64,000 bases of DNA. Origin: Escherichia phage E26. Position 1 is the stretch's first letter. Each line of letters starts with the position of its first letter. Made by a program: the position numbers and the translations under genes. The stretch is from sequence record MN655998.1, one strand, 5' to 3'. This document shows positions 48,059-64,000 of the stretch, piece after piece. Under the pieces are notes generated by a model that had not been told where the DNA came from, searched no databases, and saw nothing but the letters and a program-made list of their open reading frames with translations.

Positions 48059-48569
48059 ATTTGATTAAATCATCACATTGTTTGCGTAGTTTATAGCGAT
48101 ACTGTTTTGATTGTAGCAATTGAAGTTTTTCATAATCCCCTTCCTCATATGCAGCCGAAAGATCATCTTGATATGCTGCTTCCGTCCCGATTACACATAC
48201 TCCAAATTTTCTACGACGGTCGGCATCTTCCATTGCTTTGCGATTCATTTCTTCAATTGAATTTTCATGACCATAATAATATTCGTAAATGCGTTTCTTC
48301 TCTGCTTCTTTATCTGCCTTAATCTTTGCGATCTGTTCTGCTGATTCCGGTTGACGACCTAAACGCTGTAATGAGGCGTCTTTCTTTTCAAGGTAGTCAA
48401 TCACGCAATCTTCAACGCTATTAAATGGAAAACGTGACTCTTTCTGCCATCGTTCACATGACCGTACAAACTCGTGTGTATTCTTAGATGCAAGTGCCAG
48501 ATCATGCACAGCGCACCCATTAAGCATAGCCACTAAAGCCGCAAGACCAATCAGTTTAATCATTTTCAT
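48057..48569 (-). CDS. predicted secreted protein / lipoprotein
   Basis: 170 aa; signal peptide ending in a lipobox-like LNGC; start overlaps upstream stop (ATGA). Confidence 0.55.
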   Translation of the reverse strand: MKMIKLIGLAALVAMLNGCAVHDLALASKNTHEFVRSCERWQKESRFPFNSVEDCVIDYLEKKDASLQRLGRQPESAEQIAKIKADKEAEKKRIYEYYYGHENSIEEMNRKAMEDADRRRKFGVCVIGTEAAYQDDLSAAYEEGDYEKLQLLQSKQYRYKLRKQCDDLIK

Positions 48570-49390
48570 TTAGTCACCTCACCGAAAATTGTAAATTGTC
48601 TACGATTCTCATCACCGAAAGATTCTACTACGTCGTTTACCTTGACGCAAGTCCCGCGCGGTAAAATTACTTCACATTCGCAAGGATTCCATGCAATTGA
48701 CCCAACAACAAAACCTTTATGATCTTTTACGTCAATTACCCACGATACATTACAAGAATGTTGCATCTTTCCGGTCATGGATTCATATCGATTCTCACAA
48801 TAAAGGCTAGTGCTGTTTGATAGCCAGCCTCCAAAGATGATCGGTGTCATGCTGGTTGACACAAAGTTTTTAAAGGTAAATTCCTTATCTTCAATAATAC
48901 GCTCTATTGTCTGAATGTCAAGATGTTGACCGCGATAAAGAGTACCGTTTAACTTTTCGGTTTTATCCATGACGCAATCCATCAAATCAACAATCTCTGA
49001 TATCTCATCGGTCATGTCTTCTTCCCCTAAGAGAGCACCATTTACCCATTCGTATTGTTCAGACACATAATCACAGATTGCATTATATTCTGCTGGGGTT
49101 ATGTTGTTATGTTTGTAATGTTTGAATACATTATCTCCAAAGTCTTCGGAGTGTACTTCATACATCACATTAATGATTTTCTTGACAAATCCATAATCTT
49201 GTGTCTCACGCTCAAGGAAGCGGATAACCTTCACATAATCATCAAAGTTAATCTGATCGCTGATCATCTCAGTGATCATGTAACCATTAATCCCCTCAAT
49301 GTCATATGTTTCGATGTAATTATCCATACGTTCCATCATTGATTCGCGTGATTCTTCTGAAAGACGAAAATCCTGTAATTTCTTGAACAT
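48566..49390 (-). CDS. ADP-ribosyltransferase, short Alt paralog (Mod-like)
   Basis: 274 aa; R-S-E triad motifs LYRG, FVSTS and CECEVILPRG in the same order as in the adjacent Alt. Confidence 0.7.
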   Translation of the reverse strand: MFKKLQDFRLSEESRESMMERMDNYIETYDIEGINGYMITEMISDQINFDDYVKVIRFLERETQDYGFVKKIINVMYEVHSEDFGDNVFKHYKHNNITPAEYNAICDYVSEQYEWVNGALLGEEDMTDEISEIVDLMDCVMDKTEKLNGTLYRGQHLDIQTIERIIEDKEFTFKNFVSTSMTPIIFGGWLSNSTSLYCENRYESMTGKMQHSCNVSWVIDVKDHKGFVVGSIAWNPCECEVILPRGTCVKVNDVVESFGDENRRQFTIFGEVTK

Positions 49391-49468
49391 TTTAAGCCTC
49401 CCATATAACAGAAAACGGGGCTAGTATAAAACTAGTCCCCGTTTGAGTCAACCATTATTTCTTAAAAA

Positions 49469-51520
49469 TTACATTTTAAATTTATCTGGCATTGCGTCTA
49501 CAGATACCAGATCAGCGATAAGCTGACGTAGAGTTGCCTTATCTGCTTTCTTACGTTCGGTTTTAGCTTCGCTAATGAAGCTGGAGAAAGACAGGTCAGA
49601 AGCAGGTTTAACAACACCTTCACGGATGAATGCATCACCGTCCGCGATCATCTCGCCAGATTCTTGTAATGCTGCCAGTTCATTTTTGTTCATAATATGT
49701 GCCTCAATGTAATAAGTTTCTTGTGAATCCGTCGATGCCGTAGCACGAGTTACCGTATCAAAGGATAACACAACACCGCGAGGAAGTAAAATCTCGCATT
49801 CTTTGTAAGCAAATGCTTTGTTACCTACTGGCAAGACAGGGATGTTTTCCGCGCCAGCAATGGAGAAAGCAACATTAGCGCCACCTTCACCGCGAGAGCC
49901 AGCCATAGAATCAACACCAGCAACGGCACTAGCCACGTTTGCATTCCAGCCGCCAAAAATGTTAGGTGCAAGGGAAGTGCTCACATAGTTTTTAAAGTAA
50001 AACGCTTTTTGCTTACGTGCAGTTTCCCACATTTGCGACCGGAAGTCCATACCACGATACAGAATAGTACCCGGATCAAGTTTAACTCCATAGTTGGAGA
50101 AGGCATTATCCAGTGCATCGCACATCTTGACCAATTCTTCTGGATCTGCGATGCCTTCAAACTCTTCCAGCTTACGATCAGTTAGGAAGTTGTTCATATT
50201 GATGTATGCTGCATCGGCATATTCGCTCAATACAAAACCTTCCGCGCCAGGCAGATCAAGATCAATATCTGCCATCATTTCACCCATGTTGCTAGCAATT
50301 GCTTCAAACATACCGGAAGCAACATTACGTAGGGCATCGGTTTTAATCTGTGTGATGTGACTACGCAGCATTTCAGCTTTTACATCTGCTGGCATAGACT
50401 GGTCTACTCGATCCATTGCCAGGGCGGTGATCTTGTTTTCGAATACTTCCTCGCTCATGATTTCTTTTAAGCGTTTGATTGATGCTGCGATAACTTCCGC
50501 AGACAACGGATCATATTGATCCTGAACTTTTACCAGTTCGCTTACTGCGTATTTTGCATCGGCTTCGCTTTCAAAAATAGTACGCATGAAACCATAGCGA
50601 GTGATAATATCACTTGTCCAGTCATTCAGAGAACGGGCGGTTGAACGTTCTAAGGCTTGACGATCAATCAGAGTATTAAACTGTTTCTTAGGTTCGGCTT
50701 CGGTGATATCTTCTTCTGGTTTAAGATTAATTTTTTCTGGATGATTCACGTAGTCGCTGTTATATGTCGCTTGAGTTTTCAGCATTTCTTCTTTAGTCAA
50801 ACGAGATTTAGCCGCTACGCGTTGTTCTGCTTCCGCGTTTCGTTCTTCTTCTGACACAAGACTAGCCGCATATGCCTCATCTTTAGTCAGAGATTCACCA
50901 GTAGCCTTAGATACCCAGCGATCACCTAAATCACTTTCTACTTTAGTGAACAAGGATTCATCAAGTTTAATCCCTTTAATCTTATCAATCGCCATCCCGC
51001 GACGCTTGACAACAACTAAAGCGATCTTTTTGCTGGTCATTACTTCCTGCTGGAATACTTCAAACTTCGGTGTACGACGCACCAAACGCTCTATAACGCG
51101 CTTAACCAGTTCGGTCTTACCTTTCATGCGGGATACGTTAAAACGGAACATAACAGCGTCTAATTGCGCTTTACGGGCTGTTTCCATAACCACATCAAAA
51201 GCACTTGCCATAACTGCAATCGGGTTATCGCCTAGACCATTTTTAAGCTGTACAATACGACCGCTTTTGTTCATTTCGCACAGTACAACATGTGCGGTTT
51301 TGTCACCCATACGAATGATTTTAGGTGTTTTGTTGGTGAAGTTACAAAGACGGACAATCACATCTTTATCGCGTGTCTGTACTGCAAAAAGCTGTTTAGG
51401 ATTCTGCTTAGGCTTTAAGCACTGTACCGGAGCAATACTGCCAAAGTTTTCTTCCTCTTCCGTCAACAGCCATTTCTCGAAAGATTCAATCATTAGATCG
51501 TCGATTTCTAAGTTAAACAT
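49469..51520 (-). CDS. alt: ADP-ribosyltransferase Alt
   Basis: 683 aa; motifs LYRGMDF, YVSTSLAPNIFGG and YKECEILLPRG; size as T4 Alt (682 aa). Confidence 0.85.
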   Translation of the reverse strand: MFNLEIDDLMIESFEKWLLTEEEENFGSIAPVQCLKPKQNPKQLFAVQTRDKDVIVRLCNFTNKTPKIIRMGDKTAHVVLCEMNKSGRIVQLKNGLGDNPIAVMASAFDVVMETARKAQLDAVMFRFNVSRMKGKTELVKRVIERLVRRTPKFEVFQQEVMTSKKIALVVVKRRGMAIDKIKGIKLDESLFTKVESDLGDRWVSKATGESLTKDEAYAASLVSEEERNAEAEQRVAAKSRLTKEEMLKTQATYNSDYVNHPEKINLKPEEDITEAEPKKQFNTLIDRQALERSTARSLNDWTSDIITRYGFMRTIFESEADAKYAVSELVKVQDQYDPLSAEVIAASIKRLKEIMSEEVFENKITALAMDRVDQSMPADVKAEMLRSHITQIKTDALRNVASGMFEAIASNMGEMMADIDLDLPGAEGFVLSEYADAAYINMNNFLTDRKLEEFEGIADPEELVKMCDALDNAFSNYGVKLDPGTILYRGMDFRSQMWETARKQKAFYFKNYVSTSLAPNIFGGWNANVASAVAGVDSMAGSRGEGGANVAFSIAGAENIPVLPVGNKAFAYKECEILLPRGVVLSFDTVTRATASTDSQETYYIEAHIMNKNELAALQESGEMIADGDAFIREGVVKPASDLSFSSFISEAKTERKKADKATLRQLIADLVSVDAMPDKFKM

Positions 51521-52051: not shown

Positions 52052-52112
52052 GTTTGATTCTCCTTTCGTTTCGGTATGTGTGCATTATAGGGGATCACCG
52101 ATCCCCTGTCAA
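52052..52112 (-). promoter_or_regulatory. PeSL-like cassette b
   Basis: TTGACA, palindromic 17-bp spacer GGGGATCGGTGATCCCC (two GATC sites), TATAAT, conserved leader; -35 overlaps the end of the DUF262 gene. Confidence 0.6.
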
Positions 52113-52640
52113 CAACTTTTTTGAATTATTTTTTAATTGCTCATCTTGTAATAGAGCAATAACATGCTGGCGATGTTCTTCCGATTGAGGCACACCGAAA
52201 AAGTTTGTTTTGTAGAAATATTCTAATCGATCTTCTCGTGTGCTCTCTTCCATCATGATCGCGGGTAGTCCGAGATTTCGGAAACGTCGCTTTTCTGCTG
52301 GCGTAAAATCACTGTAATACAACATAGAATCATCATTACCAGCAATGCTAAACTCATCTTTCATAAAGGAGAATATTGCGTTTAAACGCTGTTTACCGTC
52401 CACGATTTCGATCTCATAGCGAGAGCCATCATCAATCTTAGCCATTGCGATAGCACCAACCGGAAAATCATTAATCAGGTTTTCGATAAACATACGTTTG
52501 TTTTCGGTGTCCCATACCAAAGGACGCTGATAATCTGGGTTCATGTTGATATAGCCATCTTCTAACCACGCCTCATAAACAGAGATGACAAAGTTTTTAG
52601 TATTGGTATAGTAACGGCGTTTAGGCGTTAAACGGTTCAT
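52095..52640 (-). CDS. DUF262 / ParB-like nuclease-domain protein (GmrSD N-terminal-domain-like)
   Basis: 181 aa from ATG (MNRL, AGGAGA RBS); motifs DYQRPLVW and DGKQRL; ORF-track start at 52676 is TTG. Confidence 0.6.
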   Translation of the reverse strand: MNRLTPKRRYYTNTKNFVISVYEAWLEDGYINMNPDYQRPLVWDTENKRMFIENLINDFPVGAIAMAKIDDGSRYEIEIVDGKQRLNAIFSFMKDEFSIAGNDDSMLYYSDFTPAEKRRFRNLGLPAIMMEESTREDRLEYFYKTNFFGVPQSEEHRQHVIALLQDEQLKNNSKKLLTGDR

Positions 52641-52641
52641 G

Positions 52642-52971
52642 TTATAGTCTCCTGAATGGATCATCACGTAAATCAATATCTTTTAAGAACTCATCCCATG
52701 AATGGCGGATATTGTTCTTAATTCTCCAGATAAGCGCAGGGATTGAACGCTCTCCCATCTGGAAGTAAGGATCATATGATCCATATGCCCAATATGCTAC
52801 TACAATTCCACAATCAGCGCAATAATATTCTATTTCACTTGCTGGCGACCAAAGTCCATCAATATGATCGGTGATCCTGCTTTCGATGTTATGGCTATGG
52901 CAATCAGGGCAACGGATGCAATGACCTTGTTTATCGTAATTTGACGTTAGCGAATACTTAAACAATCTCAT
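52642..52971 (-). CDS. Zn-ribbon protein
   Basis: 109 aa; CxxC..H and CxxC pairs (CIRCPDCHSH, CADCG); start overlaps upstream stop by 1 nt. Confidence 0.5.
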   Translation of the reverse strand: MRLFKYSLTSNYDKQGHCIRCPDCHSHNIESRITDHIDGLWSPASEIEYYCADCGIVVAYWAYGSYDPYFQMGERSIPALIWRIKNNIRHSWDEFLKDIDLRDDPFRRL

Positions 52972-58419: not shown

Positions 58420-58599
58420 TTACATAACAATCACGCCAGCCGTTGAAAGTTGATGTTTCAACTGAGCATTTTCTGCTACCGTCAAATCAATGATTTCTTG
58501 TGACGCTGCAATCATATAGCCATTGGTGATATTGTTTTGCATCAGTTCAATGGTTTCTTCGTTGTAGCGGATTTTAGCGATGATTTCGTTGAAGTTCAT
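58420..58599 (-). CDS. hypothetical small protein (59 aa)
   Basis: below ORF-track cutoff; cassette leader RBS. Confidence 0.45.
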   Translation of the reverse strand: MNFNEIIAKIRYNEETIELMQNNITNGYMIAASQEIIDLTVAENAQLKHQLSTAGVIVM

Positions 58600-58663
58600 A
58601 ATTGATTCTCCTAGTTCGTTTCGGTATGTGTGTATTATAGGGGAGTTTAGCCTCCCCTGTCAA
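58600..58663 (-). promoter_or_regulatory. PeSL-like cassette j
   Basis: TTGACA, spacer GGGGAGGCTAAACTCCCC, TATAAT, leader. Confidence 0.6.
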
Positions 58664-58671
58664 CAACTTTT

Positions 58672-58983
58672 TTAAAGTTTTTCCATGATAACGGTCATAA
58701 TTACATCTTCTGCGCGAGCGGTCAGATTATCAGCGTCAGCATGTGGGCGGTTGGTTGTTACAGAGATAACACCGTTGCGCACTGGTTTGATATTGATATC
58801 AAGATGATCCGCGAAACGTTCGCCAGTTACAGAATGAATTTTGGTGTTAAATTCTTTTGCCAGTGCCTTGCGAACTTCACGAATCAGGATAGCGTTTTTC
58901 AGTTGGTTCTCCGCGCTCATGGTCTTCTGGGTGTTCATGGTTCCGTCGAAGTCAATCATTGGCAGCGTTACGATGTATTTCAT
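58672..58983 (-). CDS. small protein, family C paralog 2
   Basis: 103 aa; shares the VRxAxAKEFN motif with 55372..55659. Confidence 0.5.
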   Translation of the reverse strand: MKYIVTLPMIDFDGTMNTQKTMSAENQLKNAILIREVRKALAKEFNTKIHSVTGERFADHLDINIKPVRNGVISVTTNRPHADADNLTARAEDVIMTVIMEKL

Positions 58984-59057
58984 TTTTGATTCTCCGTTTA
59001 AGAAAGTGTGTTTCGTTTTGATGTGTGTAGTATAGGGGATCGGTGATCCCCTGTCAA
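58984..59057 (-). promoter_or_regulatory. PeSL-like cassette k
   Basis: TTGACA, palindromic spacer GGGGATCACCGATCCCC, TATACT, leader. Confidence 0.55.
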
Positions 59058-59070
59058 CAACTTTTTTGAA

Positions 59071-59415
59071 TTATTTTTTCATGAGCTTAATTGCTTCTTC
59101 CATAGCCAACACATTTCGATAGTTAGGGTATCGTGTTAGATCGTCATACATTCGCTTAAGGGTGGAAACTTCCTCAAACTCTGGGTTTTCTAGATACAGT
59201 TGAACAAATTGTTTCTCTATCATCTCTGCTTTTAGCTTGTCTGCTTGTTCCTGTTCATATGATTTAGTTGGACCCAACACCAACAAAATGATAAAGGTGA
59301 TCAACGGGCTAATGATCAACGATAGGATAACATAACCGATAACGCTACGGTTTAAACGGCTTGCATACATGCCTACCAGGAAAACAAAAAGGATATAGAT
59401 AAACAGAAAGAACAT
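59071..59415 (-). CDS. small membrane protein
   Basis: 114 aa; two N-terminal hydrophobic helices then charged tail. Confidence 0.5.
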   Translation of the reverse strand: MFFLFIYILFVFLVGMYASRLNRSVIGYVILSLIISPLITFIILLVLGPTKSYEQEQADKLKAEMIEKQFVQLYLENPEFEEVSTLKRMYDDLTRYPNYRNVLAMEEAIKLMKK

Positions 59416-59422
59416 ATAATGG

Positions 59423-59896
59423 TTACTCCTTATTTTCGCGCTCGTACTTTTCGAAATAAAATTCTACTGGCTGGTCATTAATTGACAGCAAGCCAAAGCG
59501 TTTAGCCGCTCGCAATCCCATATTGCGCTGAATGTACTTCTGGAAGTTCTCGCGTATACACTTACGCCAGTATTCTAAGCCCATACAGCTTTTATAAAGA
59601 TTGCATTGCACACACGCCGGATTCATGTTATCAAGTATATCATGTTCCGGTTTATGCATTCCTACAACCTTATACTTCCACGATCCATCATCATTACGGG
59701 CAATTCGTCCATTTTCATCATAGACTACCTTTGAGCGTCGCAATACTGGTTTGATGTGGTCTGCGTGCCAGCGATCCCCTAGTTCCTCGCCACAATAGGC
59801 ACAACGTCCACCATATTTCATTTTCAGGATCTGGCGTTGCTCTTTCTTTGACAATTTTTTAGGTTTAGGGGCTTTTGCCCCTTCATTATCACACAT
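59423..59896 (-). CDS. small HNH endonuclease
   Basis: 157 aa; HNH core CAYCGEEL..WHADHIKPV..NMNPACVQCN. Confidence 0.65.
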   Translation of the reverse strand: MCDNEGAKAPKPKKLSKKEQRQILKMKYGGRCAYCGEELGDRWHADHIKPVLRRSKVVYDENGRIARNDDGSWKYKVVGMHKPEHDILDNMNPACVQCNLYKSCMGLEYWRKCIRENFQKYIQRNMGLRAAKRFGLLSINDQPVEFYFEKYERENKE

Positions 59897-61385
59897 CGAA
59901 TACCTCTTTTACTGTATTTGCAGTGGTCTTGTCGTAGCGAATACGTTTGATGATTGGGAGAAATAAAGAGAACTCCGGTTCATCTTCTTTACGTGATTTG
60001 CTGCGGATATACCCGTTGCATGTCATCTCAATGACTTTTCCAATCAGGTTATGACGATCAGCCCATAACATTTCTCGGTCGAGTTCATTTCTACGATCGA
60101 ACGGAATTACACGTTCAATACCATCATCACCTTTTTCGGTTGTAGTGTCGGTTAATCCAGATCCGGTGTTAGTCATCATTCGTCCGCACGCACTACGGAC
60201 AGTAAAACCGCCTACCTTATTGGGGTCTTTACTATGCGGATATACATCAACAATTTCCGCGTCGAAGTCAATCACTTCTTTAAATTTAACCTGATCTTTA
60301 CTACGGCGATCTTCAAATACACCATGTAAATTTTTAAGGATAATACCTTCTAAGCCCATGTTTACATAGCGATGATATACTTCGCGAGCTTCGTCTATAT
60401 TGTTAACTACAGTGTTTTCGATTATCTGAACACGAGGATCGTTAAGTTCTTCAACAATCTGTTTTAGTTCTTCGAATCGATCTTTATATTGCTTCGTTGC
60501 TTTCTCGTTTCCGTAATACACATCACGGTCGATAACATCCCAGACAGTGTAAACAATACATTGGGCTTCTTCTTTTGGAATAGTTCCTTTCAGTGATTTG
60601 TTGAGGATACCATTTCCGGTCTGACGATCTGCAACAACGGATTCTTTTACTGCTTCCGCTACTGGAGTTAATGGCATTTCCTCTTCTTCAAATATCCATG
60701 ACAGAGTACCATCATAAACGCTCTCAACGAAGTTCTGCGCTGGTGTTTGTGAAAGGGTAGGCATATATACCAATTCGCCATCTAGAACAATTCCACGGCC
60801 TCGTAGACGCTCTAAAACCGCAAACAAATCATCAAGCCCTTGATAGGTATTACCTGAGCGGGTATAGATTGCTAATGTTTCCCCGTCAATATCAGCCATA
60901 CCACGAGCGCCATCGCTTTTAAGTTGTGCATACGCCGGATATTTGATATTGGCAATAGTCTTATCAGAACATGACGATGCAAGGTGGCACGGTTGCTGAG
61001 GAATCAGTTTCTTCCATACCTTGTTTGCAGTGGTAGCGGAACAGCCGCATTCCAGATCACGATTCAGGACCATCATCGCAACTTTAGCATCATCCTCTGA
61101 CAAGCAAGTCAGAGTATCGGTAACTAGCTGTAATGCTGCATTACCAGTTACTTGACGCGTGGCAAGTTTATTTTTAAAGACCTGTAATGCACCGGATAAA
61201 GACAATACAGACGAATAGCGAGATGGTTTATCGTATTTCTTTACGCCAAACGTAACCTGTTTGCAATATGCCAGATAAAAGCATTCTTTCAGCGTTTCAT
61301 TGCTCGCGGATTCTTTCAGGATCTTTTCTTTCAGCGATGTTTTGTCGGTTGCTGCAAGCTGATTAATGATATTAAGAATTGACAT
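59889..61385 (-). CDS. 30: ATP-dependent DNA ligase gp30
   Basis: 498 aa from ATG (MSIL); adenylation motif KSDG (AYAQLKSDGARG); EGIILKN, FLPI..R..DK; ORF-track start at 61391 is GTG. Confidence 0.95.
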   Translation of the reverse strand: MSILNIINQLAATDKTSLKEKILKESASNETLKECFYLAYCKQVTFGVKKYDKPSRYSSVLSLSGALQVFKNKLATRQVTGNAALQLVTDTLTCLSEDDAKVAMMVLNRDLECGCSATTANKVWKKLIPQQPCHLASSCSDKTIANIKYPAYAQLKSDGARGMADIDGETLAIYTRSGNTYQGLDDLFAVLERLRGRGIVLDGELVYMPTLSQTPAQNFVESVYDGTLSWIFEEEEMPLTPVAEAVKESVVADRQTGNGILNKSLKGTIPKEEAQCIVYTVWDVIDRDVYYGNEKATKQYKDRFEELKQIVEELNDPRVQIIENTVVNNIDEAREVYHRYVNMGLEGIILKNLHGVFEDRRSKDQVKFKEVIDFDAEIVDVYPHSKDPNKVGGFTVRSACGRMMTNTGSGLTDTTTEKGDDGIERVIPFDRRNELDREMLWADRHNLIGKVIEMTCNGYIRSKSRKEDEPEFSLFLPIIKRIRYDKTTANTVKEVFDV

Positions 61386-61851
61386 TTTCACCTCGTTTTG
61401 TTAAACGTTCACGAATATCATTGAGGATACTACAAAATTCCGATTCAGTCAATATAGTCTTTAACGGATCAGTTCCACCTATACTATGACGTAATTTCTT
61501 ATTTCCGGTCGAGAGTAATGCTTTACAAAATTCTGGGTTATTCCGTGCCATCGTAACAAATGCCAGATGTACCAGTCTGTAATAATGCTCACTCATTCGA
61601 TGAATCGGGCGACCCTGAAAATATAACATGTGATTCTCAATCTTTTCAGTTCTTCCGGTTCTTTTTGCTTTGCCACCATGCATCAAAAAGATTTCTCTTT
61701 GTCTCTGAGGGTTCTTAAATCTTAGCCCCTGTAAAAATCCTTCTGTGCTGTTAATATCGCAACCAAATAGACGGAATGGTCTTTTATTGAAATTACTCAA
61801 TTCACCAGATGGATAAGGTCCACCCGCATAGATATCAATTTCAGAAGTCAT
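61372..61851 (-). CDS. NADAR (YbiA-like, DUF1768) domain protein
   Basis: 159 aa; GELSNF...STEGFLQGLRF and HSIGGTD..L.....ILNDIRERL fit the YbiA/NADAR pattern. Confidence 0.5.
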   Translation of the reverse strand: MTSEIDIYAGGPYPSGELSNFNKRPFRLFGCDINSTEGFLQGLRFKNPQRQREIFLMHGGKAKRTGRTEKIENHMLYFQGRPIHRMSEHYYRLVHLAFVTMARNNPEFCKALLSTGNKKLRHSIGGTDPLKTILTESEFCSILNDIRERLTKRGENVNS

Positions 61852-62005
61852 TGAAACTAATCTCGCTAATCAGAGAGAACGGATCATAATCGTCATGAGG
61901 AATATCGACAGTAATCGAATGAGGATTTACCCATACACCAAACTGGTCTTCTTCGGTGAATACTTCGGTATGGATTTCGTGGATGTTTACATTCATAGTT
62001 TTCAT
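61843..62005 (-). CDS. hypothetical small protein (about 53 aa)
   Basis: AAGGA RBS and ATG; stop overlaps the NADAR start; below ORF-track cutoff. Confidence 0.3.
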
Positions 62006-62057
62006 AATAAAATTCCTTAATAATCAATAACTTACAAAATCATATAGCCAAAATATA

Positions 62058-62076
62058 GGCGGGATTATTTCCCGCC
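62058..62076 (-). terminator. stem-loop after gene 31
   Basis: minus strand GGCGGGA-AATAA-TCCCGCC then U-rich tract. Confidence 0.45.
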
Positions 62077-62087
62077 GTTTAAAATCA

Positions 62088-62411
62088 TTAACCGTAAACT
62101 ACCACAATATTCTGTTTGTGCGTTACAGTCCATTTCAGGTCGATCTCTTCTTCCTTCTTAACGCCGTTAATAACGTCTGGATGAGGAACTTTATTAAGTT
62201 TCCCATGAGGAAGCAATACAGTCTTGCCCAGCAATTCTTTATCAACGTTATCACCGATATCAATAATCTTACCGACTAAAGGAATCTCTCCCATAGTTCG
62301 TTTTTGCTCGATGATAATACCAAAATCGCTCTTTACTTCGGTCCCTGCGCTTTCCGCTTTAGCTTCAATGATCACATAGTCACCAAGTGCTTTAGGAGTT
62401 TTAACGGTCAT
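62088..62411 (-). CDS. 31: co-chaperonin gp31 (GroES-like)
   Basis: 107 aa; GroES-like size; VPHP motif as T4 gp31; position between ligase and cd. Confidence 0.8.
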   Translation of the reverse strand: MTVKTPKALGDYVIIEAKAESAGTEVKSDFGIIIEQKRTMGEIPLVGKIIDIGDNVDKELLGKTVLLPHGKLNKVPHPDVINGVKKEEEIDLKWTVTHKQNIVVVYG

Positions 62412-62447
62412 AATTTTCTTACCTCTTCAATTCATCTCAATAGTAAA

Positions 62448-63065
62448 TTATTTATATTTCGCGACCTTTGGATTTCTCCGCAGACCGGAATGTATTTGCG
62501 CTATACAACAATAAGAAACATTAAACATATCAGCTATAATTTGCTTCTTAACTTTTCCTTTAAGCCGCATTATTTCTTCGACTTGCGCATTTGTCAGTTT
62601 TGCCCGTGAGTGGTTTTCACCGACATTGTTATTGAGTCCAGTTCTAAATGAATGTCTCATATTTTCTAGTAAGGTTACTATTTCTAGATTCCACACATAA
62701 TTGCAGGTTTTTACACCATTGATGTGATTAACCTCAAGTCCGGTAACGTCTCCTAGAAATGCATTTGCTACAAGTCGATGTATCTTTTCGGCTTTAACTG
62801 AGATTTTACCATTGTCTTTTTGTTTTGACAATGTTGAATAATAATATCCATATCGGTCTAAAATTGGTTTTATTATTTTACCAGCACGTTTTTGTTTTAC
62901 GAGCTTAATATTACCGGGAGAAACTTCTCTATAAAATTCGATACTTCGGTCAATAGATCTCAATCTACCATAATTAGAGATTTCATACCACGGATAACCT
63001 ACAGCTTGTCTCCATTCTTCCGGCGCTGGTAATACGATATTATCATCTTTTGTTTCCATTGTCAA
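62448..63065 (-). CDS. HNH homing endonuclease (NUMOD4 + HNH type)
   Basis: 205 aa; WYEISNYGRLRS (NUMOD4-like) and VNHINGVKTCNYVWNLE (HNH) motifs. Confidence 0.75.
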   Translation of the reverse strand: MTMETKDDNIVLPAPEEWRQAVGYPWYEISNYGRLRSIDRSIEFYREVSPGNIKLVKQKRAGKIIKPILDRYGYYYSTLSKQKDNGKISVKAEKIHRLVANAFLGDVTGLEVNHINGVKTCNYVWNLEIVTLLENMRHSFRTGLNNNVGENHSRAKLTNAQVEEIMRLKGKVKKQIIADMFNVSYCCIAQIHSGLRRNPKVAKYK

Positions 63066-63388
63066 CTGCCACCGTAAATTTCGACGATCTGCGCTGGAGT
63101 CAGCCCGTCTACATTAATCAGACTATCAAGCCCAAAACTACGGAAACCTTCAACTGCAATTTCATATACTGGCAAAGATGTTTCTGAGTCTTTACGCGGT
63201 TTTTCAACATTCGGAACTAACCACTTTTCGTATGTTTCGAAAGGCATCAGTGCCGGATCTCGCGTGGCGATCATCTCACGGACAGTACCATCTTTCTTAG
63301 TAAACTGCAAAGAGTGAGTACCGACCGAAAACATTTTCTTTAGTGCTTCACGAAGTGCGATATTATCAACTTGTTCAGTCATTATCAA
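63062..63388 (-). CDS. hypothetical protein (T4 31.1/31.2 position)
   Basis: 108-aa ORF coupled to both neighbours. Confidence 0.5.
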   Translation of the reverse strand: MIMTEQVDNIALREALKKMFSVGTHSLQFTKKDGTVREMIATRDPALMPFETYEKWLVPNVEKPRKDSETSLPVYEIAVEGFRSFGLDSLINVDGLTPAQIVEIYGGS

Positions 63389-63881
63389 TACCCTTCAAAT
63401 CAGTCAATAATGCTTTTGGAATACGCGTGATCGTAATATCTGCATTATTCAGAATATCAGCCCAATCACGCCCACCATTTCGATCATATGTGTCGCAATA
63501 GTATAGATGTTTAATTCCACTGTTTGCAATTGCTTTAGCGCAATCTGGACACGGTGAAGCAGTACACCACATACTAGCGCCTTCAATCGATACACCGCTA
63601 CGGGCAGCAAACAAAATAGCATTTAATTCAGCGTGGATCTCGTTTTTCTGTGACCATGCACTATGCTCTGGTCGTTTTTCTGGGATCATTTTGCCGTCAT
63701 CATCCAGCCAACCGTTTTTATGTGCATGACAGCTACAATTTACTTGCCCTGCTGGAGTTCCGTTAAATCCAGTAGAAATGATTCGCCCGTCTTTTTCGAT
63801 CAGTGCGCCTACCTTCCACGAAACACATTTAGAGTTCTTTGCGATCAGATAGGCGATCTGCATGTAAGTTTGTGACAACAT
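63375..63881 (-). CDS. cd: dCMP deaminase
   Basis: 168 aa; zinc-binding HAELNAI ... PCPDC signature; N-terminus as T4 Cd. Confidence 0.92.
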   Translation of the reverse strand: MLSQTYMQIAYLIAKNSKCVSWKVGALIEKDGRIISTGFNGTPAGQVNCSCHAHKNGWLDDDGKMIPEKRPEHSAWSQKNEIHAELNAILFAARSGVSIEGASMWCTASPCPDCAKAIANSGIKHLYYCDTYDRNGGRDWADILNNADITITRIPKALLTDLKGIDND

Positions 63882-64000
63882 AATATAATCCTCACATATT
63901 AATTAACCGTATACGCGAAAGTATTCTACTGACCCGTCGCTATACTGTTTTACATTGAATGTATTCACACCATGATTATTTCTCATGATGACATATACAC

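What the first reader, a model, noticed from the sequence alone, without database searches (positions are those of the whole stretch)
61372..61851. NADAR/YbiA-like protein coupled to the DNA ligase gene
The 159-aa protein fits the NADAR pattern (SNF ... STEG-FLQG-RF ... GGTD). Established knowledge: NADAR domains can remove ADP-ribose from guanine bases in DNA, reversing DarT-type toxins. Its stop overlaps the ligase start, suggesting co-expression with a DNA repair enzyme. Inference: an eraser of DNA ADP-ribosylation protecting phage DNA, or regulating the phage's own ADP-ribosyltransferases.
Basis: partly seen in the sequence, partly recalled or inferred. Interest (0 to 1): 0.65.

Follow-up and report, generated by a model that had tools for sequence, protein, structure and literature searches.

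The report
Phage enzyme that un-tags ADP-ribosylated DNA

Summary
The ORF is real: minus strand, 61372..61851, 159 aa, with the quoted motifs. The window is a Krischvirus, an RB49-like T4-type coliphage, and RB49 annotates this ORF as gene 30.3. It matches Pfam Phage_30_3 (E=6.5e-38) and is 38% identical over its full length to T4 gp30.3.

T4 gp30.3 was renamed AdfN in 2024-25. It is a guanine-ADP-ribose DNA glycohydrolase, necessary and sufficient to resist DarTG1.

The window protein keeps the catalytic Glu (E37), the clade-specific His (H122) and the C-terminal helix. The essential Lys is Arg here (R44), a rare natural variant.

The stop does overlap the ligase start, by 14 nt with a GAGG ribosome-binding site inside 30.3. 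That is T4-backbone synteny with genes 30.1 and 30.2 missing, not a conserved functional pairing; distant homologues sit in other contexts.

Verdict: interpretation supported, already known, low interest. No Krischvirus protein has been tested.

The parts
61372..61851 (-). Gene 30.3 / adfN orthologue: a 159-aa single-domain phage-type NADAR, predicted to be a guanine-ADP-ribose DNA glycohydrolase. Key residues are E37, R44 (Lys in most relatives) and H122; the C-terminal helix spans 136-157.
59889..61385 (-). Gene 30, ATP-dependent DNA ligase (498 aa from ATG 61385). It is the downstream neighbour in the same transcription direction. It is genomic context, not shown to be a functional partner.
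   Evidence: Pfam DNA_ligase_A_M E=2.8e-22; phrog_114 E=1.4e-141; 41% identity to T4 gp30, E=8e-124, with the alignment starting at residue 3; RB49 annotation.
61372..61394 (-). The 30.3/30 junction. The ribosome-binding site GAGG (61394..61391) and the ligase ATG (61385..61383) both lie inside the 3' end of 30.3, whose TAA stop is at 61374..61372. The overlap is 14 nt, a layout suited to translational coupling.
   Evidence: Read directly from the sequence; the same 14-nt overlap is annotated in RB49.
61841..62005 (-). Upstream 54-aa ORF of unknown function (phrog_15277). Its stop overlaps the 30.3 start by 11 nt. It is probably the first gene of the small run ORF54 - 30.3 - 30.
   Evidence: phrog_15277 E=1.6e-41; RB49ORF215c; no similarity to T4 30.4.
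62058..62076 (-). Terminator-like GC-rich hairpin followed by a T-run, located between gene 31 and the ORF54 - 30.3 - 30 run.
   Evidence: scan_promoters_terminators; a 'terminator' feature is annotated in the same 4-kb region of phage G37-3, though its exact position was not checked. This is a consensus match only.

Best explanation
The ORF is the Krischvirus (RB49-group) orthologue of T4 gene 30.3, now called adfN (anti-DarT factor NADAR). It is a minimal, single-domain member of the 'phage NADAR / gp30.3' branch of the NADAR (YbiA-fold) superfamily. The inferred mechanism is as follows. On infection of a host carrying DarTG1, the DarT1 toxin ADP-ribosylates the N2 of guanines in phage DNA and blocks replication. 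The phage enzyme binds the ADP-ribose and hydrolyses the ribose-guanine N-glycosidic bond, restoring an intact base so that replication proceeds. In that step R44 stands in the position of the phosphate-coordinating Lys, and E37 and H122 flank the distal ribose. The gene is expressed with the replication and repair genes as part of a tightly packed leftward run (54-aa ORF, then 30.3, then DNA ligase) with overlapping stop and start codons. Shown here: the ORF, its homology, its fold, retention of the key residues and the gene layout. Taken from published experiments on the T4 orthologue: guanine-ADP-ribose hydrolysis and the anti-DarTG1 phenotype. Inferred: that the 38%-identical Krischvirus protein does the same.
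Against: No Krischvirus protein has been tested, and two literature searches for Krischvirus or RB49 with DarT found nothing relevant. The essential Lys is Arg here: in my census, which is dominated by near-identical Bacteroidales proteins, the position is K in 264 of 273 family members and R in 7. In E. coli C7 NADAR the K95R mutant still hydrolysed G-ADPr in vitro but no longer rescued cells from DarT1 (PMC11543638). Identity to the tested T4 enzyme is only 38%. The direct Pfam NADAR match is sub-threshold (E=0.02, 15.6 bits against a 35.1-bit cut-off). AdfN-T4 is fully active only during T-even infection, for unknown reasons (PMC11825919), so transfer of function to another genus is not guaranteed. 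hhalign puts H122 opposite YbiA H126, one residue after the catalytic E125, whereas the structure-based literature equates the phage His with that Glu. I could not superpose coordinates to settle the register.
Confidence: 0.8

Rival explanations
1. The protein acts mainly on small molecules or free nucleotides rather than on DNA. Candidates are ADP-ribose-derived immune signals, ADP-ribosylated (deoxy)guanine nucleotides or NAD-pathway by-products, in the way E. coli YbiA is a metabolite N-glycosidase.
For: In other members of the same gp30.3 clade the domain is fused to a 5'(3')-deoxyribonucleotidase (NT5C) in many Bacteroidales proteins. Those fusion genes lie beside SIR2 and ADP-ribosylglycohydrolase genes. 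In Vibrio phage Va3 the 30.3 gene overlaps an NT5C gene. In Aeromonas phage AS-sw it lies within 3 kb of PRPP synthetase and NadV. Iyer et al. 2022 argued for soluble ADPr substrates for phage NADARs (PMC9503650).
Against: The tested family member (T4) works on DNA and its only known phenotype is anti-DarTG1 (PMC11825919; 10.1101/2025.11.20.689424). The window protein is stand-alone, with no nucleotidase or NAD-salvage gene found next to it. The two roles are not mutually exclusive.
Confidence: 0.08
2. The protein is an eraser that tunes the phage's own ADP-ribosyltransferases (Alt and a second ART in the window) by removing ADP-ribose from their protein or RNA targets.
For: Two ART genes lie on the same strand about 10-13 kb downstream: 49469..51520 (683 aa) and 48566..49390 (274 aa), both matching ADPrib_exo_Tox. 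In T4 and in Acinetobacter phage MD-2021a the order 30.3 ... ligase ... alt is kept. Iyer et al. 2022 noted co-expression of phage NADARs with ARTs in T4-like phages (PMC9503650).
Against: As far as I know, T4 Alt/ModA/ModB modify arginine side chains, whereas NADARs cleave base-ribose N-glycosidic bonds (G, and for some families C). No protein de-ADP-ribosylation by a NADAR is reported in the papers read. T4 adfN mutants have no phenotype without DarTG1 (PMC11825919; 10.1101/2025.11.20.689424).
Confidence: 0.04
3. The NADAR and the ligase form a functional two-step DNA-repair module, with ADP-ribose removal followed by nick sealing. On this view the overlapping genes reflect a mechanistic partnership.
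For: There is a 14-nt stop/start overlap, with the ligase ribosome-binding site inside 30.3. The ligase is within 3 kb of 30.3 in T4, Krischvirus and one Acinetobacter phage. AdfN-T4 seems to need some unidentified T-even factor for full activity (PMC11825919).
Against: NADAR hydrolysis regenerates an intact guanine and makes no strand break, so no ligation step is required (chemistry as described in PMC11543638). In 6 of 9 informative loci sampled no ligase is nearby; the neighbours are instead NT5C with gp47/46, NAD salvage genes, tRNA clusters, a helicase with DenV, or a CCA enzyme. In T4 two unrelated genes separate 30.3 from 30. Overlapping genes are the norm throughout this genome region.
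Confidence: 0.04
4. The Krischvirus allele is catalytically weakened or repurposed because the essential Lys is Arg, so it does not protect against DarTG1 in vivo.
For: R44 occupies the position of T4 K43, and K43A is null (PMC11257639). Lys is found in 264 of 273 relatives. K95R in E. coli C7 NADAR loses in-vivo antitoxin function (PMC11543638).
Against: K95R retained in-vitro hydrolysis (PMC11543638). Arg is fixed in the whole Krischvirus clade and in a 68%-identical relative, while every other invariant residue is kept. Substitutions against RB49 are mostly synonymous. This pattern indicates a protein under selection, not a decaying one.
Confidence: 0.07

Closest known systems
T4 gp30.3 = AdfN (anti-DarT factor NADAR); Pfam PF08010 Phage_30_3, the 'phage NADAR' family
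   Same: It is the orthologous gene in the same genomic backbone (gene 31 ... 30.3 ... 30). It shows 38% identity over the full length, is a single core NADAR domain of about 150-160 aa, and keeps the catalytic Glu, the clade-specific His and the C-terminal helix.
   Different: It has Arg instead of the essential Lys (T4 K43). It carries a 7-residue C-terminal extension that holds the ligase start. It abuts the ligase directly because genes 30.1 and 30.2 are absent. No 30.3'-type internal ORF was found. It is untested experimentally.
DarG1, the NADAR antitoxin of DarTG1 (E. coli C7, Geobacter/Trichlorobacter lovleyi; PDB 8BAT)
   Different: DarG1 has an N-terminal extension and Asp at the last-strand catalytic position where the phage clade has His. 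DarG1 is encoded next to its toxin, whereas the phage gene is an 'orphan antitoxin'. T4 AdfN cannot replace DarG1 in uninfected cells (PMC11825919, PMC11125620).
E. coli YbiA (PDB 2B3W), the YbiA-type NADAR and riboflavin-intermediate N-glycosidase
   Different: YbiA has Glu at the last-strand position and the WGDGG...G.N.LG motif, which the phage clade lacks. YbiA is a chromosomal gene in the LexA-controlled dinG operon. It does not protect against DarT1 in vivo (PMC11125620).
AdfN-Bas32 / AdfN-Bas60 (NADARs of T5-like and Vequintavirinae phages)
   Same: They are phage-encoded NADARs with anti-DarTG1 activity (PMC11825919).
   Different: They belong to different NADAR clades acquired independently; they are not gp30.3-type.
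AdfM (T4 Tk.4 macrodomain) and AdfA (T4 61.2)
   Same: They are other T-even counter-measures against DarT toxins (10.1101/2025.11.20.689424; PMC11825919).
   Different: AdfM is a macrodomain aimed at thymine-ADPr (DarTG2). AdfA binds and blocks DarT1 rather than erasing the mark. Neither shares the NADAR fold.

Membership tests
NADAR superfamily (YbiA fold) | Significant profile-level sequence homology to NADAR/YbiA proteins | tested here: met
   hhalign of a 40-sequence gp30.3 alignment against a 20-sequence YbiA/NADAR alignment gives probability 97.8%, E=8.6e-13 over 138 aligned columns. The direct single-sequence Pfam NADAR match is only E=0.02, below the cut-off. Some YbiA-like proteins carry precomputed hits to both PF08010 and PF08719.
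NADAR superfamily (YbiA fold) | YbiA fold: a helical core flanked by two small beta-hairpins | tested here: met
NADAR superfamily (YbiA fold) | Conserved Glu at the distal-ribose site (Pn E43, EcC7 E88, T4 E36) in the (S/T)E..FQ motif | tested here: met
   E37 in S35-T-E-G-F-L-Q41 aligns to YbiA E48 and T4 E36. It is Glu in 268 of 273 relatives.
NADAR superfamily (YbiA fold) | Basic residue coordinating the ADP-ribose phosphates (Pn K50, EcC7 K95, T4 K43) | tested here: met
   The position is basic but is Arg (R44), not the usual Lys: K in 264 and R in 7 of 273 relatives. K95R keeps in-vitro hydrolysis but loses in-vivo rescue in E. coli C7 NADAR (PMC11543638). This is the main caveat on activity.
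Phage NADAR / gp30.3 / AdfN family (PF08010) | Match to the family model above its curated threshold | tested here: met
   PF08010: 130.1 bits against a cut-off of 36, E=6.5e-38, covering model positions 2-138 of 138. phrog_652 E=9e-45.
Phage NADAR / gp30.3 / AdfN family (PF08010) | His in the last beta-strand where YbiA-type proteins have Glu and DarG1-type have Asp | tested here: met
   H122 lies at the end of strand 119-121. It is His in 265 of 273 relatives and aligns with T4 H123. The register relative to YbiA E125/H126 is ambiguous by one residue in hhalign.
Phage NADAR / gp30.3 / AdfN family (PF08010) | Core domain only (no DarG1-type N-terminal extension) with an intact C-terminal helix; loss of the last 15 aa inactivates the RB69 allele | tested here: met
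   The protein is 159 aa. The domain starts at residue 3. Helix 136-157 is present and extends past the T4 C-terminus.
Phage NADAR / gp30.3 / AdfN family (PF08010) | Hydrolysis of guanine-N2-ADP-ribose on DNA | not testable with these tools
   Shown only for T4 gp30.3 (PMC11125620, PMC11825919, PMC12945103).
Phage NADAR / gp30.3 / AdfN family (PF08010) | Necessary and sufficient for phage resistance to DarTG1 | not testable with these tools
   Shown for T4 and T2 (PMC11825919; 10.1101/2025.11.20.689424). No Krischvirus data were found.

The most novel reading that the evidence does not exclude
The Krischvirus allele may be a natural specificity variant of AdfN. Its Arg-for-Lys change at the phosphate-binding site and its translational coupling to DNA ligase might mark a different substrate range, such as other ADP-ribosylated bases, RNA or nucleotides. 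Alternatively they might point to gp30 or the replisome as the unidentified T-even-specific factor that AdfN needs for full activity in vivo.
Probability: 0.06. Interest if true: 0.55.

Novelty: already known. Interest (0 to 1): 0.2.

Why it matters
It matters little as a discovery. The gene family (gp30.3) has been annotated in RB49 since its GenBank record AY343333. Its NADAR affinity has been in the literature for years, and its function as an anti-DarTG1 'orphan antitoxin' was demonstrated for T4 in 2024-25.

There are two points of practical value. First, current annotation resources still label it 'hypothetical' or 'unknown function' (PHROGs phrog_652 and nearly all of the GenBank records listed), so it can be re-annotated as adfN. 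Second, the Krischvirus clade offers a natural Lys-to-Arg variant in a different genus of T4-type phage. This is a convenient test of which features make AdfN work only in T-even infections, a question the published work left open.

Tried and rejected
- **Single-sequence search of PDB sequences.** It found no NADAR. Its best hit, a D-alanyl carrier protein ligase (7vhv, E=7e-4), is contradicted by the fold and profile evidence and was treated as spurious.
- **Profile-versus-sequence PDB searches.** They barely see YbiA (E=1.1 and 0.016). Only profile-profile and structure comparisons are decisive. The first profile (A2) was contaminated by the fused NT5C domain and mainly hit deoxyribonucleotidases.
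- **Defence and naming libraries.** PADLOC gave no hit for the NADAR. NCBIfam gave only a weak sub-threshold hit to a NADAR anti-phage family (E=0.016).
- **RNA families.** An Rfam scan of 58500..64000 found nothing.
- **Promoters.** Promoter-like sites in the region are no more frequent than in shuffles (14 against 13.4 +/- 3.5). No convincing promoter was seen between the hairpin at 62058..62076 and the 54-aa ORF, so the transcription unit is not defined.
- **Conserved NADAR-ligase pairing.** I tested this on nine informative loci and rejected it. Klebsiella phage PKO111 was uninformative because the gene sits at the record end.
- **The 54-aa upstream ORF.** It has no similarity to T4 30.4.
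- **hmC dependence.** I considered that AdfN might depend on hydroxymethylcytosine DNA, which would make a Krischvirus copy informative. The published T4-GT7 experiment already excludes that dependence (PMC11825919).
- **Active-site geometry.** I could not obtain model coordinates to measure it.
- **Other anti-DarT factors.** I did not check whether this phage also carries adfA (61.2) or adfM (tk.4).

Full report
**Observation**

The window carries a minus-strand ORF at 61372..61851 (ATG to TAA, 159 aa).

Immediately downstream on the same strand is a 498-500-aa ATP-dependent DNA ligase (Pfam DNA_ligase_A_M E=2.8e-22, phrog_114 E=1.4e-141). It is 41% identical to T4 gp30 (E=8e-124).

The ORF listing starts the ligase at GTG 61391. 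Three lines of evidence instead put the real start at ATG 61385:
- the alignment to T4 gp30 begins at residue 3 of the ATG-started protein;
- the RB49 annotation uses the equivalent ATG;
- a GAGG box lies at 61394..61391, 5 nt upstream.

The stop of the 159-aa ORF (TAA 61374..61372) therefore lies 14 nt inside the ligase gene, and the ligase ribosome-binding site lies inside the 159-aa ORF.

**Identity of the phage and the gene**

A 4-kb stretch around the ORF is 97-99% identical to RB49, JSE, PHB13, G37-3 and other Krischvirus phages of E. coli. RB49 annotates the same ORF as gene 30.3, between ORF215c/gene 31 and gene 30.

- The protein matches Pfam PF08010 'Bacteriophage protein GP30.3' at E=6.5e-38, far above threshold, and phrog_652, 'unknown function'.
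- It aligns over its full length with T4 gp30.3 at 38% identity (E=6e-30).
- tblastn finds homologues in 1509 phage records: 59 at >=95% identity (the Krischvirus group) and the rest below 60%.
- Against RB49, five codons differ, four of them synonymously.

**Is it a NADAR?**

Single-sequence methods hardly see it. The Pfam NADAR match is E=0.02, below the cut-off, and phmmer against PDB sequences finds no NADAR.

- A 40-sequence gp30.3 alignment (A3) compared with a 20-sequence YbiA/NADAR alignment (A4) by hhalign gives 97.8% probability, E=8.6e-13 over 138 columns.
- An AlphaFold2 model built on 26 homologues is confident (pLDDT 90.5, pTM 0.87).

**What is known about the family**

- Schuller et al. 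2023 (PMC11543638) showed that NADARs hydrolyse guanine-N2-ADP-ribose. They noted that the last-strand catalytic Glu of YbiA-type proteins is Asp in DarT1-associated NADARs and His in 'phage NADARs'.
- Toxins 2024 (PMC11125620) names these phage NADARs gp30.3 proteins. It shows that the T4 protein removes guanine-ADPr but not thymine-ADPr in vitro.
- Johannesman et al. (bioRxiv PMC11257639; Nat Commun 2025, PMC11825919) mapped T-even resistance to DarTG1 to gene 30.3 and renamed it adfN.
  - Deletion of adfN sensitises T4 and T2 by about four logs.
  - Ectopic expression rescues RB69, whose allele is frameshifted and lacks the last 15 residues.
  - E36A and K43A mutants are inactive.
  - Purified protein de-ADP-ribosylates DNA.
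- A transposon screen independently found that adfN insertions are lost only on DarTG1 hosts (10.1101/2025.11.20.689424).

**Does the window protein keep what matters?**

E37 aligns with T4 E36 and YbiA E48. H122 aligns with T4 H123. The C-terminal helix (136-157) is complete and even 7 residues longer than in T4.

I aligned 273 family members to a family HMM. The window protein has the consensus residue at every near-invariant position (S19, N20, E37, Q41, Q51, A62, R85, H122, G125, T132, T135, E138) except one. The position of T4 K43 is Arg (R44). That position is Lys in 264 sequences and Arg in 7, including the Krischvirus cluster and a 68%-identical relative. This census is dominated by near-identical Bacteroidales proteins.

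The substitution is conservative and is fixed in the clade. It is still the main caveat, because K95R in E. coli C7 NADAR retained in-vitro hydrolysis but no longer rescued cells from DarT1 (PMC11543638). One technical ambiguity remains. hhalign places H122 opposite YbiA H126, next to the catalytic E125, whereas structure-based alignments in the literature equate the phage His with that Glu. I had no coordinates to check this.

**The ligase 'coupling'**

Co-expression is plausible. A 54-aa ORF, 30.3 and gene 30 follow each other with 11-nt and 14-nt overlaps. A terminator-like hairpin (62058..62076) separates this run from gene 31. No promoter could be identified.

The adjacency is best read as T4-backbone gene order:
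- In T4 the order is 31 ... 30.3 - 30.2 - 30.1 - 30 - alt.1 - alt.
- In Acinetobacter phage MD-2021a one unknown gene separates 30.3 from the ligase, and an Alt-like ART gene follows.
- In Krischvirus, 30.1 and 30.2 are simply absent.

In more distant homologues the neighbours differ:
- Vibrio phage Va3: an overlapping NT5C deoxyribonucleotidase gene, then gp47/46.
- Aeromonas phage AS-sw: PRPP synthetase and NadV.
- Ralstonia phage RSP15 and Aeromonas phage 44RR2.8t: tRNA clusters.
- Rhizobium phage RL38J1: a helicase and DenV.
- Sinorhizobium phage phiM12: a CCA-adding enzyme.

Mechanistically, NADAR hydrolysis restores an intact guanine without nicking, so no ligation step is needed. I therefore rate a NADAR-ligase repair module as unlikely.

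The window does encode an Alt-like ART (49469..51520) and a second ART (48566..49390) on the same strand. The 30.3 ... 30 ... alt order is old. However, as far as I know these ARTs modify arginines, NADARs cleave base-ribose bonds, and T4 adfN mutants have no phenotype without DarTG1. This reading has low probability.

**A different rival**

Parts of the gp30.3 clade look nucleotide- or NAD-centred. Many Bacteroidales proteins fuse the domain to NT5C. Those genes sit in a SIR2 - three unknowns - ADP-ribosylglycohydrolase - NADAR::NT5C cluster. Together with the Vibrio and Aeromonas contexts, this keeps open a small-molecule or free-nucleotide substrate for some members. Nothing of the kind flanks the window gene.

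**Verdict**

The gene is the Krischvirus adfN, a member of an already characterised family, so novelty is 'already known' and interest is low.

What remains open:
- whether the Arg variant is fully active;
- whether it shares the unexplained restriction of T4 AdfN to T-even infections. The published T4-GT7 result shows that restriction is not due to DNA modification and suggests an unknown phage cofactor (PMC11825919).

No experiment on a Krischvirus protein was found in the searchable literature.

Noticed in passing
L012:2846-7661 (also L013, L014); proteins P0009-P0123: In Bacteroidales (Muribaculaceae and Prevotellaceae MAGs, contigs up to 2.6 Mb) the gp30.3-type NADAR domain is fused to a 5'(3')-deoxyribonucleotidase (NT5C, PF06941). 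The fusion gene sits in a conserved cluster: SIR2, three unknown small proteins, ADP-ribosylglycohydrolase (PF03747), NADAR::NT5C, then an unknown 223-aa protein, with a RelA/SpoT gene following. These fusions make up most of the top profile hits. The cluster may correspond to the ARG-centred systems with HAD 5'-nucleotidases sketched in PMC9503650, section 3.8.
   Followed up: partly
L005:3007-3958 (Vibrio phage Va3): In this KVP40-like phage the 30.3 homologue is overlapped by a separate 5'(3')-deoxyribonucleotidase gene, followed by gp47/gp46. This is the same NADAR-NT5C pairing as the bacterial fusion, but as two genes.
   Followed up: no
window 48566..51520 (-): Two ADP-ribosyltransferase genes lie in tandem: a 683-aa Alt-like protein (49469..51520) and a 274-aa ART (48566..49390). 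Both match ADPrib_exo_Tox. They lie about 8-13 kb downstream of the ligase, whereas in T4 alt follows gene 30 almost directly.
   Followed up: partly
window 52095..52676 (-): A phage-encoded 193-aa protein carries a GmrSD N-terminal (DUF262) domain (Pfam E=3.4e-20) and matches the PADLOC NsnA model (E=1.6e-20). It is a defence-type nuclease domain carried by the phage itself.
   Followed up: no
window 62448..63065 (-) and 59423..59896 (-): A NUMOD4/HNH_3 homing-endonuclease gene sits between gene 31 and 31.1. RB49 has no such gene there, because 31 and 31.1 abut. A second HNH endonuclease gene overlaps the ligase stop by 8 nt. These mobile insertions explain why several relatives cover only 86-91% of the 4-kb query.
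   Followed up: partly
window 62058..62076 (-): A strong terminator-like hairpin (GGCGGG-AAATAAT-CCCGCC followed by a T-run) lies just after gene 31. A 'terminator' feature is annotated in the same 4-kb region of phage G37-3; its exact position was not checked.
   Followed up: no
window 61841..62005 (-): A 54-aa ORF (phrog_15277, RB49ORF215c) is translationally overlapped with the 30.3 start. It has no detectable similarity to T4 30.4 and its function is unknown.
   Followed up: partly
proteins P0304, P0347, P0354, P0380, P0384, P0391: Some ordinary YbiA-type proteins carry precomputed hits to both PF08010 (Phage_30_3) and PF08719 (NADAR). The two Pfam models evidently overlap even though this window's protein reaches only E=0.02 on PF08719.
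   Followed up: no
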